In this document: positions 31,850 to 38,944 of the stretch, piece after piece
How the letters are laid out: every line of letters begins with the position of its first letter
Position numbering within the stretch: the first letter of the stretch is position 1
From: Bdellovibrionales bacterium
GTDB lineage: Bacteria > Bdellovibrionota > Bdellovibrionia > Bdellovibrionales > CAYMLA01
Length of the DNA stretch: 64,000 nt
Reading direction: 5' to 3'
NCBI GenBank assembly: GCA_965217115.1
Contig: OZ244239.1
Span: 64,001 to 128,000, forward strand
Translations under genes and position numbers: made by a program
Notes under the pieces: model-generated
Databases searched by the model: none
Seen by the model: only the letters and a program-made list of their open reading frames with translations
What the model was told of the DNA's origin: nothing

Positions 31850-32884
31850 ATGTTAAAGCGGTCGTTTTTCGGGGTGTTTTTTCTAGGAGTGGCTCTCTTA
31901 TTTGGCTGTAGCACAATTGATAATAGGAAGCTGTCTAAGAACAACGATAGTCTCCAATCAGATCGTGGACTGGCAGGAGCAAAAGCTGCCAGCCTGATTC
32001 GCCCCCATGCCGATTTTGTTCTAGTCAAAGCGGGAAAATTTAAAATGGGGAGTCCGAAAGATGAATACGGTCGTTATGATGATGAGCTTTTACATGGAGT
32101 GATTCTCACGAAAGATTTTGAGATACAGACAACTGAGGTGACGCAGAGGCAATGGTTTCATGTAATGGGTGACAACCCTTCCTATTTTAAACCGTCTGTA
32201 GCTAAGAGTTCTCTTGTGGGTATTGATTACAGCGTTAGAATAGATGATGCCTATTGTCCGGAGACTGCTATTATTAAAAGACGTTATACTCTGTGTCCAG
32301 AGCACCCAGTGGAGAATGTTTCTTGGCAGGATGTGCAGAGATTTATTAAGAGACTAAACAAATCTAGTCAGGCTTATGTTTACAGATTACCCACAGAAGC
32401 GGAGTGGGAATACGCCGCCCGTGAAGAGGGGAGCTCAACGACTCCCTTTAACTTAGGGGATAATATTTCTTCAGATAGGGTGAACTATTATACCCTCAGA
32501 AATGCTAACTATGGAAGTTCCGCTAAGGGTCTCTTCTATAGAGAGCAAACAGTTGCTGTGGGTAGTCTTGATAATGCTAATAGTTTAGGAATTTTTGACA
32601 TGCATGGAAATGTAAGGGAGCGGGTGCAGGATTTTCATGGAGAGTACCCTAATTCTGGTTTTAGTAGTTCTACTTCTGTTAAGGATCCCAAAGGGCCTTC
32701 GAGTGGCTGGCATATTGCGCGTGGCGGTAGCTGGGCCGTGAGGGCTCAGAACGCGCGCTCGGCATATCGTAGCCGGACGTCTCAGTCTGGGTTTTCGTCT
32801 GTTGTCGACTCCGATCTGGGCTTCCGCCTTGTGAGGACTGCCAAAAGAAACTCGACGACACCACCCTTTTACAACTTCAGATAA
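31850..32884 (+). CDS. FGE-sulfatase (SUMF1/CLec-fold) domain lipoprotein, copy 1 (lacks the N-terminal domain)
   Basis: LFGC lipobox; FKMGS, TEVT, HPVENVSW, RLPTEAEWEYAAR, DMHGNV, RGGSW and GFRLVR motifs. Confidence 0.9.
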   Translation: MLKRSFFGVFFLGVALLFGCSTIDNRKLSKNNDSLQSDRGLAGAKAASLIRPHADFVLVKAGKFKMGSPKDEYGRYDDELLHGVILTKDFEIQTTEVTQRQWFHVMGDNPSYFKPSVAKSSLVGIDYSVRIDDAYCPETAIIKRRYTLCPEHPVENVSWQDVQRFIKRLNKSSQAYVYRLPTEAEWEYAAREEGSSTTPFNLGDNISSDRVNYYTLRNANYGSSAKGLFYREQTVAVGSLDNANSLGIFDMHGNVRERVQDFHGEYPNSGFSSSTSVKDPKGPSSGWHIARGGSWAVRAQNARSAYRSRTSQSGFSSVVDSDLGFRLVRTAKRNSTTPPFYNFR

Positions 32885-33184
32885 ACTTAAGCTTTTACCC
32901 TTTCCCAGAACGACAGTCCCCTTGGAAAAGGGGCGTAGCTGAGTTTCTAATGTTGAGTTTAAAACCCGTGGATAAGTGTTCACCGGACCTATAAGAGTTC
33001 TCTCTTCGCCTTCAAATCTCCGAGGGCCTTTAGGCTAGTTTGCCTTTATGTTTTCTGCCAGTCTCGGCGACTTTCTTTACTTATCTCTAATAAGCCTTGA
33101 TACTATAATAACTGGTGAGTGTTATAAACCATCGTGTAGAAAATTGAAGTAGAAATTGAAGTCAAAACTTGAAGGAGTTTAAGA

Positions 33185-34711
33185 ATGTTAAAGCGATCGT
33201 TTTTCGGGGTGTTTTTTCTAGGGGTGGTTCTCTTATTTGGCTGTAGCACAATTGATAATAGGAAGCTGTCTAAGAAGAATGATAGTCTTCAACCAGTTCG
33301 TGAACTGGCAGGGGGAAAAGCTGCCAGCGTGATTGGGCCTAATGGTCAGGTGATTCTTTTCTACAGGGACGGTGGTAAGATCGTTGTTAAAGAGTGCATG
33401 GAAGAGACTATTTTAAAAGATAGCTCTTATAAGAGAGATTGTCTTCAAGGGGAGGGAGCAAAGACGAGAGAGATTCCAGTGGAGGAGTTTAAAGAAGATT
33501 TGAAAAGGGCTTTACAAATTCCCCACAGTGTCTCTAAGGCTAATTATGACGGGAAAACAAAGGCGAGGATTGAATTGTACAAGAAGGGGATGTCGAAGGA
33601 GATTACCGATCTAAAGCATCAGAAAAATATGATAAGAGAGGCTGTGGGGACAACAACGACGTTTAATGGGCTCTATGGTGCTGGAAATAATTTGAGGAAT
33701 ACAGGGAAACAAGGGGCGCGTAATGCTCGTTTGGCGGAGATTGAAGCCCGCTTAAATACCAAGAACATAGAAAGCGCTATAGCTGAAATAAATGGTTTAA
33801 TAGACACTATTGTCGACGAGGTCATGTCCCAGGGTGAGTTGAGACATTTTGTTTTTTCTGAAAACCAGACAGGTTTTGAATTTAATCTTTTAAGAAGTTA
33901 TTTTCGAACGTCAGATGATTTACAAGCCTATTTTGTTCCGATCAAAGCGGGACTATTTCTAATGGGGAGCCCGAAAGATGAATACGCTCGTTATGATGAT
34001 GAGATTTTACATGGAGTGATTCTCACGAAAGGTTTTGAAATGCAGACAACTGAGGTGACGCAGAGGCAATGGTTTCATGTAATGGGTGACAACCCTTCCT
34101 ATTTTAAACCGTCACAATCTAGAAGGTATTGTCGAGAGACTGCTATTATTAAAGAGACTTATACCATGTGTCCAGATCACCCAGTGGAGAATGTTTCTTG
34201 GCAGGATGTGCAGAGATTTATTAAGAAACTAAACAGATCTAGTCAGGTTTATGTTTACAGATTACCCACAGAAGCGGAGTGGGAATACGCCGCCCGTGAA
34301 GGGGGGAAATCAACCACTCCTTTTAATCTGGGGGAGAATATTTCTACAGATAAGGTGAACTACGATGGTGACGAACCCTATGGAAGAAGTGCCGCTAAGG
34401 GTATCTATAGAGCGCAAACAGTCGCTGTGGGTAGTCTTGATAATGCGAATGCTCTAGGGATTTCTGACATGCATGGAAATGTATGGGAGTGGGTGCAGGA
34501 TTTGCGTGGAGATTACCCTGGATCTGATTCTATTGATCCTAGGAGTTTTATTAGGGATCCAAAAGGGCCTTCAAGTGGCAGGGATGCTATTATACGTGGC
34601 GGTAGCTGGTACACCTATGCTCGGAGTGCGCGGTCGGCGTTTCGTGATACTCTTAGGAGAGCTGGCTCTTCCAACACTGTGGGCTTCCGCCTTGTGAGGA
34701 CTGCCAAATAA
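33185..34711 (+). CDS. FGE-sulfatase (CLec-fold) domain lipoprotein, copy 2
   Basis: Same motifs plus a ~190-aa helical N-terminal region. Confidence 0.9.
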   Translation: MLKRSFFGVFFLGVVLLFGCSTIDNRKLSKKNDSLQPVRELAGGKAASVIGPNGQVILFYRDGGKIVVKECMEETILKDSSYKRDCLQGEGAKTREIPVEEFKEDLKRALQIPHSVSKANYDGKTKARIELYKKGMSKEITDLKHQKNMIREAVGTTTTFNGLYGAGNNLRNTGKQGARNARLAEIEARLNTKNIESAIAEINGLIDTIVDEVMSQGELRHFVFSENQTGFEFNLLRSYFRTSDDLQAYFVPIKAGLFLMGSPKDEYARYDDEILHGVILTKGFEMQTTEVTQRQWFHVMGDNPSYFKPSQSRRYCRETAIIKETYTMCPDHPVENVSWQDVQRFIKKLNRSSQVYVYRLPTEAEWEYAAREGGKSTTPFNLGENISTDKVNYDGDEPYGRSAAKGIYRAQTVAVGSLDNANALGISDMHGNVWEWVQDLRGDYPGSDSIDPRSFIRDPKGPSSGRDAIIRGGSWYTYARSARSAFRDTLRRAGSSNTVGFRLVRTAK

Positions 34712-35008
34712 ATTAAAGAGTCACTTAAGTTTTTACCCTTGCTCCCTTGGAAAAAGGGCGTAGCCGAGTTTCTAATGTTGAATTTAAAACCCGTGGATAA
34801 GTGTTCAGTGGGTAAGTGTTCATTGGAGTTCGCCTTCAAATCTCCGAGGGGCTTTAGTCTAGAATCCCTCTATGTTTTCTGCCAGTCTCGGCGACTTTCT
34901 TTACTTATCTCTAATAAGCCTTGATACTATAATAACTGGTGAGTGTTATAAACCATCGTGTAGAAAATTGAAGTAGAAATTGAAGTCAAAACTTGAAGGA
35001 GTTTAAGG

Positions 35009-36722
35009 ATGTTAAAGCGATCGTTTTTCGGGGTGTTTTTTCTAGGGGTGGCTCTCTTATTTGGCTGTAGCACAATTGATAATAACAGTCGTGAACTGGC
35101 AGGGAAAAAAGCTGCCAGCGTGATTGGGCCTAATGCTCAGGTGCTTCTTTTCTACAGGTACAGTGATAATATCGTTGTTAAAGAGTGCATGGAAGAGACT
35201 ATTTTAAAAGATAGCTCTTATAGGAGCGATTGTCTTCAAGGGGTGGGAGCAAAGACGAGAGAGATTCCAGTGGAGGAGTTTAGAGAAGACTTGAGAAGTG
35301 CCCTACGAATTCCCCACGGTGTCTCTAGTGCTAATTATGACGGAAGAATAAAGAAGAGGATTGCATTGTATAGGAAGGGGATGCCGAAGGACATTGCCGA
35401 TCTAAAGCTTAAGAAAAGCGAGATAGAAGGGCTTGTGAATAAAACAAAGAATTTTAATAAAGCCTATGATTCTAAAAGTAATTTGAAGAATACAAGGAAA
35501 CAAGGGTCGCGTAATGCTCGTTTGACGGAGATTGAAGCCCTCTTAGAAAATACCAAGAACTTAGAAGGCGCTATAGACACTCTTGTCGACGAGATAATAG
35601 CCCAGAGTAAGTTGAGACAATTTGTTTTTTCTAAAACCCAGACAAGTTTTGTATTTAATCTTTTAAGAAGTTATTTTCGAACGTCAGATGATTTACAAGC
35701 CTATTTTGTTCCGGTCAAAGCGGGAAAATTTAAAATGGGGAGTCCGAAATATGAAAAGGGTCATTCGGATAATGAGATTTTACATGGAGTGCATCTCACG
35801 AAAGATTTTGAAATGCAGACAACTGAGGTGACGCAGAGGCAATGGTTTCATGTAATGGGTGCCAACCCTTCCTATTTTAAACCGTCAATAACGCATGAAT
35901 TTAAAAAATATTGTCCAGAGACTGCTATTATTAAAGAGAGTTATACCATGTGTCCAGATCACCCAGTGGAGCGGGTTTCTTGGCAGGATGTGCAGAGATT
36001 TATTAAGAAACTAAACAGATCTAGTCAGTTTTATATTTACAGATTACCCACAGAAGCGGAGTGGGAATACGCCGCCCGTGAAGAGGGGAGTTCAACCACT
36101 CCTTTTAATCTGGGGGAGAGTCTTTCAGATAAGGTGAACTATAATGGTGACTACCCCTATGGAAATGCCGCTAGGGATGTCTATAGAGAGCAAACAGTTG
36201 CTGTGGGCAGTCTTGATAATGCGAATGCTAAGTTTTTACCCTTTGCTACAGTTCCCTTGGAAAAGGGGCGTAGCTGAGTTTCTAGGGATTTCTGACATGC
36301 ATGGAAATGTAGGGGAGTGGGTGCAGGATTGGTATGGAGATTACCCTGAATCTAATCCTGGGAGTTTTATTAAGGATAATATCGTTGTTAAAGCTATTTT
36401 AAAAGATAGCTCTTATAGGGCGATTGTCTTCAAGGGGTGGGAGCAAAGACGAGAGAGATTCCAGTGGAGGAGTTTGGCAAGTCTGAGTATAGTATTATAC
36501 GTGGCGGTAACTTGTACAGCGGTGCTACGAACGCGCGGTCGGCGGCTCGTGCTCTTTCTAAGAAGTTGCCTTTTCGAACGTGTTCCGGTCAAAGCAGGGA
36601 AATTTCTAATGGGGAGCCCGAAAGATCAGGCGTTATTTTGGATAATGAGATTTTCAATGTGGGCTTCCGCCTTGTGAGGACTGCCAAAATAAACTCGGCG
36701 ACACCCTTTTCCAGTAATGAGT
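35009..36722 (+). pseudogene. FGE-sulfatase lipoprotein copy 3, interrupted/mosaic
   Basis: Intact to 36229. A 52-bp insertion (36230-36281) introduces a stop, and the remaining DMHGNV, RGG and GFRLVRT motifs lie in other frames separated by further inserted segments. Confidence 0.75.
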
Positions 36723-36901
36723 AGACTTAAGTTTTCACCCTTCCCCAGAGAACTACGATGTCGCTACCCTTGTGCCGCTATGAGAGCACACAGTTGCTGT
36801 GGGCAGTCTTGATAATGCGAATGCTCTTGGAGGGAAGTAGAAGAGTTCTCTGCCGTATTGTTTTTACTTTGCAAATGAAAATGGAAATGACGCTGTTGCA
36901 C

Positions 36902-36948: not shown

Positions 36949-38628
36949 TCATACACTGTTTAAGCAAGATGCTCTCTCCGAGGCCACCTTAATAAGATCC
37001 ATTTGAATACACTGGCTCAGTATGTCTAAGTGGGGTTCTAATTCAGAGACTCTTCGGGGTGTTTGAACTTCCGTTAAGAGGGTGGATATTCCATCACTGA
37101 TAGGAATGATACTTACACTATGGATGTTTTTTATGAGGAGAAAAGATTTCTCCCCATCACTGGGTTGTAGGTCTAAAGATCCTGAATTTGAGTCTACCTG
37201 TGAATCGTGTAAGCTACATTGCCATAGATAATCTATTGGGTGTAAAGATTTTATGATTCTAATGTGTGAAACCCGTTGGAGAGTTGTCTGATTTCCTTGT
37301 TTTTTTAATATGGAAGTGAATACTTTGATTGAAGTGCTTTCATCAAGAGGGCTTAAGAGTAGAATCTTTAGTTCCCATTCAAGACAGGCCAGGTCGGAGA
37401 GGAAAGGGATCGCTTCCTGGGTGTTCATACTTTGTATGTGTTGGGAGAAAAAACTGCCATAATCAGAGAGCTGATAACTCCTATGGGTGTAGTTCTTAAT
37501 GTAGGAATGGGCGAGAGAGATAAAGACTTCTCTACCCAGATTTTTTTGACAGGCGGGAAAAGTATCTTCTAGTACTTGATAGAGATTTGCTTGATAGTTC
37601 TTGCGATAAATATCTAAGCACTCCTTGCCATTAAGTTTCGCTAGGGGAATTATTTTAGACTCTATATGATTATTCTGAGTTTCTATTGTTTGTCTAAATT
37701 CCTTCTGTACGTTCTGTAGAGTGTTCCCCATAGGACTATCGAAAATGTGATTTCCTTGTGTCAGTTGATGAGGTGTCTGGGACTCTATCCTCCTACGAAT
37801 TGAGTTAGCTTGTTGGGTTTGTTCAAGCATAACAGAATAGTCGGGGATATCACTGTCCCATTCTAGGCATGTGGGAATATCCCCTAAAATTCCTAGGGCC
37901 TTCCCGTAGAGTTGCCAAACGGGTTGTGCTACTTTTGTGGAATGGGTGTCTAAGAGGTGATTGCCCATACTGCTATGACCAGCCAGATGAATTTGTCTTA
38001 TCTGCGATGCAGGGAGCTGTTTTAAGAAGGCAGAGGCATCCAGGTTGTGATTGATGCTATTGACGTAGAGATTGTTGAGATCAAGGAGTAGATCGCACTG
38101 TGTCTCCTCTAGGATGGCACAGATAAACTCTGCTTCAGTCATAGTGGATGATTTGTACGAGAGGTAGTGGGAGACATTCTCTATAACTAGAGTTTGCTCA
38201 AAGAAGTCTTGCAGTTTATTGATTCGGCAAGCGATGTGCTTAATGACTTCGTCGGTGTATGGCAGAGGAATAAGATCGTTTAGGTATTTCCCATCCTGAG
38301 AGACCCAGCAAAGATGGTCGGAGACCCACTGTGGAGAGAATTTTTTTTGTAGAGATTTGATTTCTTTTAGATAATTCCAGTTAAGCTCGTCAGAGGAGCC
38401 TATGGACATATTCACGCAATGGAAGGTGAGAGGATAGAGTTCAGAGAGCTGTTCTAGTTTCTGATGTTGAAGGCTCCCCGAGTGGAGGTAATTGTCGGCG
38501 AGAATTTCTAGCCAGGGGAGATCGCCATCTCTTCTCATCAGAGGGGCAAAGTGCTGAGGTCGTGCGCTAAGTCCGACCCCAGTGATGGTAGAAGTATTGA
38601 CGGGCATTCTTTTAGATTTTTTTGCCAC
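36949..38628 (-). CDS. Fused multinuclear non-heme iron oxidase (DUF692/BufB-like) and DUF2063 (BufC-like) protein
   Basis: N-terminal half has WLEILADNY, HCVNMSIG, SDHLCW, IENVS, LLDLNNLYVN, QIHLAGH, LDTH and LEWD. C-terminal half has LDIYRKNY...LEDTFP...DYG..F...DLACLEW. Confidence 0.88.
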   Translation of the reverse strand: MAKKSKRMPVNTSTITGVGLSARPQHFAPLMRRDGDLPWLEILADNYLHSGSLQHQKLEQLSELYPLTFHCVNMSIGSSDELNWNYLKEIKSLQKKFSPQWVSDHLCWVSQDGKYLNDLIPLPYTDEVIKHIACRINKLQDFFEQTLVIENVSHYLSYKSSTMTEAEFICAILEETQCDLLLDLNNLYVNSINHNLDASAFLKQLPASQIRQIHLAGHSSMGNHLLDTHSTKVAQPVWQLYGKALGILGDIPTCLEWDSDIPDYSVMLEQTQQANSIRRRIESQTPHQLTQGNHIFDSPMGNTLQNVQKEFRQTIETQNNHIESKIIPLAKLNGKECLDIYRKNYQANLYQVLEDTFPACQKNLGREVFISLAHSYIKNYTHRSYQLSDYGSFFSQHIQSMNTQEAIPFLSDLACLEWELKILLLSPLDESTSIKVFTSILKKQGNQTTLQRVSHIRIIKSLHPIDYLWQCSLHDSQVDSNSGSLDLQPSDGEKSFLLIKNIHSVSIIPISDGISTLLTEVQTPRRVSELEPHLDILSQCIQMDLIKVASERASCLNSV

Positions 38629-38944
38629 TTTTTACTGCTGAAGCAGTGTTTTTTTGAATTTTTTTGATGTATGCCTTGATGGCGGGGTTTTTGATAGCTC
38701 TCTGGATTTTGTCACAATCAGCTTTGCTCATTCCAATCCATTCGTTTTTATTAAAATCAGTCTTGGCATGATAGTGACAACCGTGGCCATTGGCGCCACA
38801 ATCGTTAGTCCATTTAGTGGCAATGCCCTTACATTTTATATGACCAGGTTCTAGAGCTGAGGCTTCTTCCCCTATTAATTGCCCGCCAGCAGCAAGAAGT
38901 CCTATGAGCACTGTTGATAGGATTTTTTTATCTTGTTTTTTCAT
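38612..38944 (-). CDS. DUF2282/BufA1-like (bufferin-type) secreted RiPP precursor
   Basis: Signal peptide followed by the 4-Cys pattern KCxGI......NDC......C.............W......C, directly upstream of the MNIO gene. Confidence 0.8.
   Translation of the reverse strand: MKKQDKKILSTVLIGLLAAGGQLIGEEASALEPGHIKCKGIATKWTNDCGANGHGCHYHAKTDFNKNEWIGMSKADCDKIQRAIKNPAIKAYIKKIQKNTASAVKSGKKI

What the first reader, a model, noticed from the sequence alone, without database searches (positions are those of the whole stretch)
31850..36722. Tandem CLec-fold lipoprotein genes with a DGR-like mutational signature but no RT or template in the window
Seen: over the 21 codons from CGT GGC GGT, copy 2 (from 34595) and copy 3 (from 36500) differ at 16 first/second codon positions and only 1 third position (ACC/AGC, TAT/GGT, CGG/ACG, TTT/GCT, GAT/GCT, ACT/CTT, CTT/TCT, AGG/AAG). 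Just before GFR the three copies read TCC GAT CTG / AAC ACT GTG / TTC AAT GTG, followed by an invariant TGGGCTTCCGCCTTGTGAGGACTGCCAAA. Established: FGE-type CLec domains are classic DGR targets (e.g. Treponema TvpA), varied at AAY-derived codons in this RGGSW..GFR segment and followed by an invariant IMH. Inference: these are remote or former targets of a DGR whose template would read roughly CGTGGCGGTAACTGGAACAACAATGCTAAGAACGCGCGGTCGGCGAATCGTAATAATAAT...AACAATNTGGGCTTCCGCC, diversifying surface lipoproteins in a probable predator. Caveats: copy 1 fits less well (indel and third-position changes), and TGG/TTG is not A-derived.
Basis: partly seen in the sequence, partly recalled or inferred. 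Interest (0 to 1): 0.78.

Follow-up and report, generated by a model that had tools for sequence, protein, structure and literature searches.

The report
Orphaned targets of a lost retroelement
Three tandem surface-lipoprotein genes carry the variable tail and docking sequence of a diversity-generating retroelement, but this genome has lost the retroelement itself and keeps only a 39-base scrap of it, so the tails appear to be frozen records of past targeted hypermutation.

Summary
Copies 2 and 3 differ at 16 first/second and 1 third codon positions over 21 codons, and the 29-mer is invariant. The three genes belong to an 11-member family of FGE-sulfatase (CLec-fold) lipoproteins that all end GFRLVRTAK.

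The complete 2.17-Mb genome has no DGR reverse transcriptase, Avd or template. Its only RT is a type VI retron.

A same-order relative (G011) has an intact DGR: target, HRDC, Avd, RT, TR. Its VR docking sequence (IMH) is letter-identical to the first 24 bases of this family's invariant 27-mer, GGC onward. Seventeen related templates were recovered. Variation among this genome's copies falls on their adenine positions. The closest template matches 87% at non-A sites and 38% at A sites.

A 39-base relic of the HRDC accessory gene lies 76 bases after paralog C3.

Verdict: these are former DGR targets orphaned by loss of the cassette. This is a new member of a known kind.

Caveat: the scrambled tail of copy 3 is not supported by public contigs.

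The parts
31850..32884 (+). W1: short-form lipoprotein gene (344 aa), signal peptide with a Cys lipobox, FGE-sulfatase/CLec domain
   Evidence: ORF. Pfam PF03781 E 1.4e-41. The lipobox (..LLFGC) is read directly from the translation and was not run through a predictor.
32720..32816 (+). W1 variable region (from the RGG codons to the 29-mer), four codons longer than the canonical 29
   Evidence: Codon listing. The family alignment shows the extra codons before GFR.
32817..32845 (+). W1 invariant 29-mer, an IMH-type docking sequence encoding (L)GFRLVRTAK
   Evidence: Exact pattern match. From its third letter on, 24 letters are identical to the VR IMH of G011's intact DGR.
32909..32942 (+). Conserved non-coding element after W1, with a small 6-bp hairpin. 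The same kind of element follows DGR targets in relatives.
   Evidence: Downstream listing. Best local fold -6.6 kcal/mol. The whole-stretch fold is not better than shuffles.
33185..34711 (+). W2: long-form lipoprotein gene (508 aa), N-terminal extension with no Pfam match plus FGE-sulfatase/CLec domain
   Evidence: Pfam PF03781 E 3e-47. PDB matches PvdO 1.1e-18 and TvpA 5.4e-14.
34595..34679 (+). W2 variable region, canonical 29 codons from RGG to the GFR codons (overlaps the 29-mer by 2 bases)
   Evidence: Against the L120 template: 3 of 39 mismatches at non-A sites and 7 of 12 at A sites in the first 51 bases. One contig covers it with 0 differences in three runs.
34680..34708 (+). W2 invariant 29-mer (IMH-type)
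34734..34767 (+). Conserved downstream element after W2, with a small hairpin
   Evidence: Not significant against shuffles.
35009..36277 (+). W3: long-form gene. As assembled the frame ends early (422 aa) because a 52-base copy of the intergenic element is inserted at 36229-36280.
   Evidence: Pfam PF03781 covers only profile positions 5-173 of 255.
36281..36724 (+). Remainder of W3. FGE continuation at 36281-36377, a piece of the N-terminal region at 36378-36474, VR from 36500, a stretch at 36564-36659 holding a piece of the FGE start at 36581-36659, and the tail after the 29-mer.
   Evidence: Repeat families D8, D9, D14 and D15. Alignment. Contigs join 36377 to 36475, and join 36563 to a W2-like VR end, skipping both inserted pieces.
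36500..36659 (+). W3 variable region as assembled.
36660..36688 (+). W3 invariant 29-mer (IMH-type)
36758..36825 (+). Stray FGE-domain fragment after W3. Public contigs have 30 other letters here, resembling the HRDC relic seen after paralog C3.
   Evidence: Repeat family D5. Joint 36751 to 36825 on a 17-kb contig at depth 37.6. The resemblance to the relic was judged by eye.
36826..36870 (+). 45-base stretch shared (41 of 46 identical) with the sequence directly after the HRDC relic at paralog C3. It is the right flank of the deletion scar and marks the end of the W/C segmental duplication.
   Evidence: blastn. A loose end at 36870 continues into the C3 locus.

Best explanation
The three genes are members of an 11-copy family of probable surface lipoproteins. 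Each has a C-terminal FGE-type C-type-lectin-fold domain that ends in a DGR variable region (VR) followed by the IMH docking sequence.

In relatives with the intact element (target, HRDC, Avd, RT, TR), the RT copies the template (TR) RNA into cDNA and misreads adenines. That cDNA overwrites the VR up to the IMH. This randomises about a dozen AAY-derived codons in the ligand-binding face.

In this genome the cassette has been deleted. Only 39 bases of the HRDC accessory gene remain, beside paralog C3. The VRs are therefore frozen products of past mutagenic homing and now change only by ordinary mutation and recombination between paralogs.

Shown here: the domain, the IMH identity, the absence of RT/Avd/TR, the relic, and the concentration of variation at the template-adenine positions of relatives' templates.

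Inferred: that this lineage's own lost template wrote these VRs, surface exposure of the proteins, and any role in binding.
For: Domain: PF03781 in all three genes. TvpA (2y3c) is the second-best solved match.

Family: 11 paralogs, all ending GFRLVRTAK. Ten of them match the 27-mer with at most 3 mismatches, against 0 for the reversed control.

Intact DGR in G011: the VR IMH is identical to the first 24 letters of the 27-mer. The TR carries the diverged IMH*. Every VR/TR difference in two VRs lies at a TR adenine. HRDC, bAvd and RVT_1 were confirmed by Pfam.

Lineage: 17 TRs and 14 VRs of the same lineage were recovered from 19 further RT loci plus G011.

Template-adenine test: among 9 in-register copies, entropy is 1.52 at 11 TR-A sites and 0.45 at 40 other sites (P 1e-5). 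Restricted to codon positions 1/2 it is 1.52 vs 0.31 (P 6.5e-6). For W2 vs W3, 10 of 17 differences lie at TR-A sites against 6 of 46 unchanged sites (P 5e-4).

Closest template: L120 matches 87% at non-A sites and 38% at A sites.

Absence in this genome: the only RVT_1 hit is a type VI retron with its HTH partner. There is no PF05635 or PF22296 match. tblastn with G011's RT and Avd, and with 194 ORFs from 21 relatives' loci, found no RT or Avd. All VR-like and TR-like blastn hits are the 3' ends of the paralogs themselves.

Relic: 12 of 13 residues match G011's HRDC protein, 76 bases after the end of C3. The same stretch matches the HRDC genes of six relatives at 78-88% over 34-41 bases.

Multi-target habit: DGR-bearing relatives have 8-13 IMH sites, counting VRs and the TR's IMH* where it matched: G232 13, G341 9, G281 8, G357 8.

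No current variation seen: one contig spans the W2 VR with 0 differences at the depth of its neighbours in three runs.
Against: No template from this lineage exists to test directly. The adenine test uses relatives' templates. Template-A sites are also the ligand-binding positions, so diversifying selection would favour the same sites.

The 16:1 codon-position bias is not different from the gene-wide bias.

In the second half of the VR the copies share little with each other or with relatives' templates. Four copies have indels.

Within this genome the 27-mer's synonymous conservation is only modestly above other invariant-residue columns (0.85 vs 0.69, 8 vs 72 columns).

There is a timeline tension. 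The scar's right flank follows both C3 and W3, so the deletion appears older than the W/C duplication. Yet W2 and W3 are more alike than W is to C and still have different VRs. This needs later homogenisation of the gene bodies, a second cassette that has since gone, or copying of the scar by gene conversion.

An element outside the single assembled contig cannot be excluded.
Confidence: 0.8

Rival explanations
1. The targets are still diversified in trans by a DGR that is not in the assembled chromosome, such as a phage, a plasmid or a co-resident strain whose template matches these VRs.
For: The IMH is intact in 9 of 11 copies. It is conserved across families of the order, so a foreign cassette of this lineage could in principle recognise it. 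G011 already has a remote target on another contig. The runs holding this genome are complex (2-5.5 million contigs each) and show a second form of the W3 locus.
Against: The genome is a single contig, 99.4% complete, with no RT, Avd or TR. The W2 VR is one contig with 0 differences at full depth in three runs, though contigs drop rare variants. Third-position drift, indels and two damaged IMHs (B1, C3) indicate no recent overwriting. The GC-rich hairpin that follows most relatives' VRs is missing.
Confidence: 0.08
2. This is an ordinary paralog family under diversifying selection, with no DGR history. The pattern comes from selection on the lectin-fold binding face.
For: The whole genes evolve with as many or more changes at codon positions 1/2 as at position 3: W2/W3 45/58/31 and C2/C3 42/35/31. 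The VR's position bias is not above that background. RGGSW, RSA.R and GFR are general FGE-domain motifs (recalled).
Against: A 24-letter stretch is identical to the IMH of an intact DGR in another family of the order, and matches it at synonymous sites too. An HRDC relic lies beside a paralog. Identity to a relative's template is 87% at non-A and 38% at A sites. Five of 11 changed VR codons are changed at both positions 1 and 2 with no third-position change.
Confidence: 0.03
3. Since the DGR was lost, the family has diversified by recombination and templated insertion between tandem paralogs. The scrambled copy 3 would be an example. This is compatible with the best explanation as a later phase.
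For: As assembled, copy 3 holds three pieces copied from elsewhere in the family, and a fourth lies just after it. The upstream and signal-peptide regions are 97% identical between W2 and W3, against about 90% for the gene bodies. The scar flank is shared between two clusters.
Against: Two of the inserted pieces, and the fragment after the gene, are bypassed by contigs of the four runs. The depth over them in run X1 equals what the bypassing contig alone would give (my arithmetic). The mosaic may therefore be a minority haplotype or an assembly or polishing artefact.
Confidence: 0.15

Closest known systems
Treponema denticola DGR and its target TvpA (HRDC-containing 'architecture C' of Wu et al. 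2018, PMC5758913; passages read)
   Same: The target is an FGE-type CLec-fold protein with a C-terminal VR. 2y3c is the second-best solved match, E 5.4e-14. The relatives' cassettes carry an HRDC accessory gene as well as Avd. HRDC-containing DGRs were 14 of 372 in that survey. That TvpA is a lipoprotein is recalled.
   Different: Here the RT, Avd and TR are gone and only 39 bases of HRDC remain. There are 11 targets. The gene order in relatives is target, HRDC, Avd, RT, TR.
Intact DGRs of same-order relatives (G011/L102, G341/L120, and 15 more with templates)
   Same: The same IMH (24 letters identical to G011's), the same VR length of 29 codons in 6 of 11 copies, the same RGGSW..RSA.R..GFR frame, and a similar non-coding element after the stop codon. 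The multi-target habit is shared, with up to 13 sites.
   Different: There is no cassette in this genome. Proteins outside the VR are at most 48% identical to anything found outside the genome. The GC-rich hairpin after the VR is missing. The VRs carry drift at non-A sites.
Bordetella phage BPP-1 Mtd DGR (the prototype in which IMH/IMH* and a downstream hairpin were defined; recalled, not read here)
   Same: The logic is the same. An invariant VR 3' end (IMH) differs from the template's IMH* by a few bases and fixes the direction of transfer. The same VR/TR contrast is seen in all 17 relatives' pairs.
   Different: The CLec subtype differs (Mtd-type, not FGE-type). BPP-1 is a phage tail-fibre system with a single target. 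No function has been tested here.

Membership tests
DGR variable (target) protein, FGE-type CLec | C-terminal CLec/FGE-sulfatase-fold domain that carries the VR | tested here: met
   PF03781 E 1e-41 to 3e-47 in W1 and W2, partial in W3. TvpA 2y3c E 5.4e-14.
DGR variable (target) protein, FGE-type CLec | IMH at the 3' end of the VR, matching the IMH* of a template apart from a few bases | tested here: met
   24 letters are identical to the VR IMH of G011. The TR has the diverged form. The same contrast holds in 17 TR and 14 VR sequences.
DGR variable (target) protein, FGE-type CLec | A cognate template (TR) in the same genome that differs from the VR only at adenines | tested here: not met
   No TR-like copy exists. 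All blastn hits of the three VRs and of G011's TR are the paralogs' own 3' ends. All 10 matches to the 20-mer are VR-type.
DGR variable (target) protein, FGE-type CLec | VR variation confined to template-adenine positions (tested with relatives' templates as proxy) | tested here: inconclusive
   There is strong enrichment (entropy 1.52 vs 0.45, P 1e-5; L120 87% vs 38%) but it is not exclusive. There are 3-9 mismatches at 39 non-A sites per in-register copy, and four copies have indels.
Active diversity-generating retroelement (whole system) | DGR-class reverse transcriptase in the genome | tested here: not met
   The only RVT_1 hit is a type VI retron RT. There was no match to G011's RT, nor to 194 ORFs of 21 relatives' loci.
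Active diversity-generating retroelement (whole system) | Accessory protein (Avd and/or HRDC) next to the RT | tested here: not met
   No PF05635 or PF22296 match. HRDC is present only as a 13-residue relic at G000:2160448-2160486.
Active diversity-generating retroelement (whole system) | Within-population variation restricted to the VR | tested here: inconclusive
   The W2 VR is covered by a single contig with 0 differences in 3 of 4 runs. These are contigs, which drop rare variants, and no raw reads were available.

The most novel reading that the evidence does not exclude
The IMH-bearing orphan array may be a standing 'landing pad'. The docking sequence is conserved letter for letter across families of the order, so a DGR cassette of this lineage arriving by transfer, or supplied in trans by a phage or a co-resident strain, could restart hypermutation of all ~10 surface lipoproteins at once. 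Loss and regain of the cassette would then switch a whole receptor repertoire between frozen and evolving states. In support, 27 other genomes of the order have an IMH-like site but no close RT. At least three relatives carry broken RTs: G341, G378 and G281.
Probability: 0.1. Interest if true: 0.75.

Novelty: new member of a known kind. Interest (0 to 1): 0.45.

Why it matters
This is a clean natural example of what remains after a diversity-generating retroelement is lost. Eleven frozen variable regions are left, each still carrying its docking sequence, along with a short scar of the cassette.

It also uncovers a DGR lineage spread patchily through one bacterial order, with up to 13 IMH-type sites per genome. 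Two literature searches found no description of it. The order is possibly the one that contains Bdellovibrio, but that was not established here.

If the lipoproteins are surface receptors, the lineage would be a way for these bacteria to vary what they bind, and the orphan state shows that variation being switched off.

It also shows that a template can be inferred from orphan VRs alone.

Tried and rejected
Hairpin after the IMH. Folding 72-100 bases after the stop of W1, W2, W3, C3 and both G011 targets gave z-scores from -0.58 to +1.26, none better than shuffles. A sliding 34-base fold shows GC-rich hairpins after most relatives' VRs and only small ones here (medians -8.9 vs -6.3 kcal/mol, P 0.01). 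This is suggestive only.

Nucleotide conservation of the 27-mer inside this genome. It is the top of 144 nine-codon windows for overall identity (0.927). Its third-position identity (0.825) is second, and only modestly above other conserved motifs. It is not decisive. The cross-genome identity is what counts.

Close homologues elsewhere. The search for related loci gave 79 loci, all at most 48% identical in the FGE domain and from many phyla. None is a close relative of the family. I did not screen those 79 loci for DGRs.

G001, the only other genome of the same family. It has a 44%-identical RT on a 2.7-kb contig but no IMH match. It was fetched and not analysed further.

Earlier notes of this scan: nothing on this genome fitted.

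Literature. 'diversity-generating retroelement' plus 'Bdellovibrio' gave 2 papers. In one the term occurs only in the reference list. The other was seen as a listing only. A four-term search on DGR loss gave 32 papers. In Schillinger and Zingler 2012 (PMC3575424) I read only the passages stating that DGRs may be lost in culture.

Parts of the stretch without contig cover in run X4 or X3 are not used as evidence.

Full report
OBSERVATION

The window holds three tandem genes on the + strand: W1 at 31850-32884 (344 aa), W2 at 33185-34711 (508 aa), and W3 from 35009. All three start with a nearly identical signal peptide ending in a Cys lipobox, read directly from the translations. All three match Pfam FGE-sulfatase, PF03781, at E 1.4e-41, 3e-47 and 2.7e-25.

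Over the 21 codons from 34595 and from 36500 the two copies differ at 17 bases, split 5/11/1 by codon position. The three triplets before GFR are as written. The 29-mer occurs exactly at 32817, 34680 and 36660.

The density of change is about three times the gene-wide rate for this pair. At that rate 5.4 position-1/2 differences are expected and 16 are seen (P 1.6e-4).

The 16:1 bias by itself is not special. The other 402 aligned codons differ 45/58/31, and other paralog pairs differ about equally at all three positions. The family as a whole evolves fast at the protein level.

THE FAMILY

tblastn with W2 finds 11 paralogs in the 2.17-Mb single-contig genome (99.4% complete):
- the three in the window;
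- two near 1.29 Mb (A1, A2);
- one at 1.72 Mb (B1);
- five at 2.157-2.166 Mb (C1-C5).

All end in the residues GFRLVRTAK, with F for A in C3. Ten match the 27-mer with at most 3 mismatches, against 0 for the reversed control. B1 carries four synonymous changes. Six copies have the same 29-codon stretch from RGG to GFR. W1, A1, C1 and C5 have indels, and W3 as assembled is interrupted there by inserted sequence.

WHAT THE GENOME LACKS

The only RVT_1 match is a 315-aa RT beside an HTH gene at 1.868 Mb. PADLOC types them as RT_VI (1e-71) and HTH_VI (6.9e-28), a type VI retron.

There is no match to PF05635 or to bAvd PF22296. tblastn with the RT and Avd of a relative's DGR, and with 194 ORFs from 21 relatives' DGR loci, finds no RT or Avd. 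blastn with the three VRs and with a relative's template hits only the 3' ends of the paralogs themselves. All ten 20-mer matches are of the VR type. The genome therefore has no template.

RELATIVES SETTLE WHAT THE 29-MER IS

Among 40 relatives, only G011 has the 27-mer (1 and 2 mismatches). G011 is in the same order but another family. One of its two sites is the end of an FGE-domain gene followed by three ORFs:
- an HRDC-domain ORF (PF00570, 2.4e-22);
- a bAvd ORF (PF22296, 3.2e-21);
- a 338-aa RT (RVT_1, 4.1e-18).

Directly after the RT lies a 126-base repeat of the VR. Every difference between this template and the two VRs of G011 lies at a template adenine. One of those VRs is on another contig. 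The VRs end in the same 24 letters as this window's copies, while the template's end diverges after GTGAG. That is the IMH/IMH* contrast.

With G011's RT as query, 17 of 383 other genomes of the order have a match at E <= 1e-90, across six families. G000 has none. From these loci I recovered 17 templates and 14 VRs with the same frame and the same IMH/IMH* contrast.

THE TEMPLATE-ADENINE TEST

I took as 'TR-A' the sites where at least 80% of the 17 templates have A. The comparison used the nine G000 copies that are in register over the first 51 bases.
- Entropy is 1.52 at 11 TR-A sites and 0.45 at 40 other sites (Mann-Whitney P 1e-5).
- Within codon positions 1/2 only, it is 1.52 vs 0.31 (P 6.5e-6).
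- For W2 against W3, 10 of 17 differences lie at TR-A sites, against 6 of 46 unchanged sites (Fisher P 5e-4).

The closest template, L120 from G341, matches the nine copies at 87% of its non-A sites and 38% of its A sites. W2 has 3 of 39 mismatches at non-A sites and 7 of 12 at A sites.

Two caveats apply. These are relatives' templates, not this lineage's own. And template-A codons are also the binding-face residues, so selection would favour the same sites. In the second half of the VR the copies share little with any template.

A SCAR OF THE CASSETTE

The one DGR-protein match in G000 outside ordinary genes is a 13-residue stretch, 12 of 13 identical to residues 88-100 of G011's HRDC protein. 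It lies at 2160448-2160486, 76 bases after the end of paralog C3 (sequence). The same bases match the HRDC genes of six relatives at 78-88% over 34-41 bases. The genome-wide E-value of 0.021 is weak alone. The position beside a target and the repeated nucleotide matches make chance unlikely.

The 45 bases that follow the relic recur after W3 at 36826-36870 (41 of 46 identical), and the stretch just after the stop also matches. So the W and C1-C3 clusters are segmental duplicates that include the scar's flank.

This raises a timeline problem that I could not resolve. The deletion appears older than the W/C duplication, yet W2 and W3 are more alike than W is to C and still have different VRs. 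Three explanations would reconcile this: gene conversion of the gene bodies, a second cassette lost without trace, or copying of the scar by gene conversion.

READS

Four runs from one sample and one study hold the stretch, as contigs only. The W2 VR is covered by one contig spanning 34454-34707 with 0 differences, at depths 30, 12 and 5.8 in X1-X3. These are similar to its neighbours. No VR heterogeneity is seen, though contigs drop rare variants.

The same call shows a second form of W3:
- a joint from 36377 to 36475, with 20 other letters between (X1, depth 19.7);
- a joint from 36563 to a W2-like VR end, with 7 letters between (X1-X3);
- a joint from 36751 to 36825, with 30 other letters between, on a 17-kb contig (X1 depth 37.6; also X2).

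In X1 the bin depths of 11.1 and 8.64 over 36436-36613 equal what the 19.7-deep bypassing contig alone would contribute (my arithmetic). The window-specific pieces therefore have no contig support there.

The scrambled copy 3 is thus a minority haplotype, another strain's form, or an assembly or polishing artefact. In the bypassing form the VR would have the canonical 29 codons by my count.

HOW IT MOST LIKELY WORKS

In the ancestor, and still in relatives, template RNA is reverse-transcribed with misincorporation at adenines. The cDNA replaces the VR up to the IMH and randomises AAY-derived codons of the lectin-fold binding face. One cassette serves many targets: relatives have 8-13 IMH sites per genome.

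In this genome the cassette was deleted and the 11 VRs were left as they stood. Since then they have drifted, with third-position changes, indels and two damaged IMHs (B1 and C3). They have also lost, or never had, the GC-rich hairpin that follows most relatives' VRs.

I put the fossil reading at about 0.8, diversification in trans by an unassembled element at about 0.08, and no DGR history at about 0.03.

COMPARISON AND NOVELTY

DGRs with FGE-type CLec targets, with HRDC accessory genes ('architecture C', 14 of 372 in Wu et al. 2018; passages read) and with several targets are all known. What is new here is a member and a state:
- a DGR lineage spread patchily through one order;
- a genome with the largest orphan set seen in that order.

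G000 has 10 IMH sites and no RT. Of the 45 other genomes with a 20-mer match:
- 15 have a close RT;
- 3 have a weaker or partial one;
- 27 have none or only distant RT matches.

Those 27 have at most 4 sites each (cross-tabulated by hand). Many are incomplete assemblies, and the reversed control gave 3 hits in 384 genomes.

Broken RTs in G341, G378 and G281 show that decay recurs.

Two literature searches found no description of DGRs in this group. Supplements of the DGR surveys were not opened and may list them.

The organism was not identified. The best outside matches to the FGE domain include assemblies labelled Bacteriovoracaceae and Bdellovibrionales, among many other phyla.

Noticed in passing
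window 36949-38944 (- strand): A 559-aa fusion of an MbnB/TglH/ChrH-type RiPP-modifying enzyme (PF05114, 5.3e-96) with DUF2063. It lies directly downstream of a 110-aa secreted Cys-rich DUF2282 protein (PF10048, 6.2e-09). The layout resembles a bufferin-type peptide cluster (name recalled).
   Followed up: partly
L001 = G000:C1:1867139-1870675: The genome's only reverse transcriptase is a type VI retron: a 315-aa RT (PADLOC RT_VI 1e-71) with an HTH_VI partner (6.9e-28), next to a 193-aa ORF of no known family.
   Followed up: partly
window 36229-36280, 36378-36474, 36564-36659, 36758-36825: As assembled, copy 3 holds short pieces copied from other parts of the family: the intergenic element, the N-terminal region and the FGE start. 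Contigs of four public runs bypass three of the four places. This may be a templated-insertion haplotype or a polishing artefact.
   Followed up: partly
relatives' loci L102, L103, L105-L116 (36-70 bases after the IMH): Most VRs of the intact DGRs are followed by a GC-rich hairpin with a short purine-rich loop, sometimes nested in a longer inverted repeat. This includes the remote target of G011. It may be the target-recognition structure known from BPP-1 (recalled). This genome's copies lack it.
   Followed up: partly
order-wide: 27 other genomes of the order have 1-4 IMH-like sites but no close DGR RT. Several are 99-100% complete (G100, G101, G105, G007, G119, G156). Orphan targets may be common in this order.
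   Followed up: no
G341:C5:708849-709448, G378:C25:3200-4054, G281:C4:356-913: RTs of this DGR lineage are interrupted by stop codons in three relatives. G341 has the template closest to this genome's VRs, and its RT has 2 TAG stops.
   Followed up: no
all 11 paralogs: Outside the VR the paralog pairs differ as much or more at codon positions 1 and 2 as at position 3 (W2/W3 45/58/31; C2/C3 42/35/31). The whole proteins are under relaxed or diversifying selection.
   Followed up: partly
L124 120-1964 (G000:C1:2155119-2156963): Three tandem paralogous genes for small secreted proteins (168-183 aa, near-identical signal peptides) lie just upstream of the C1-C3 cluster.
   Followed up: no
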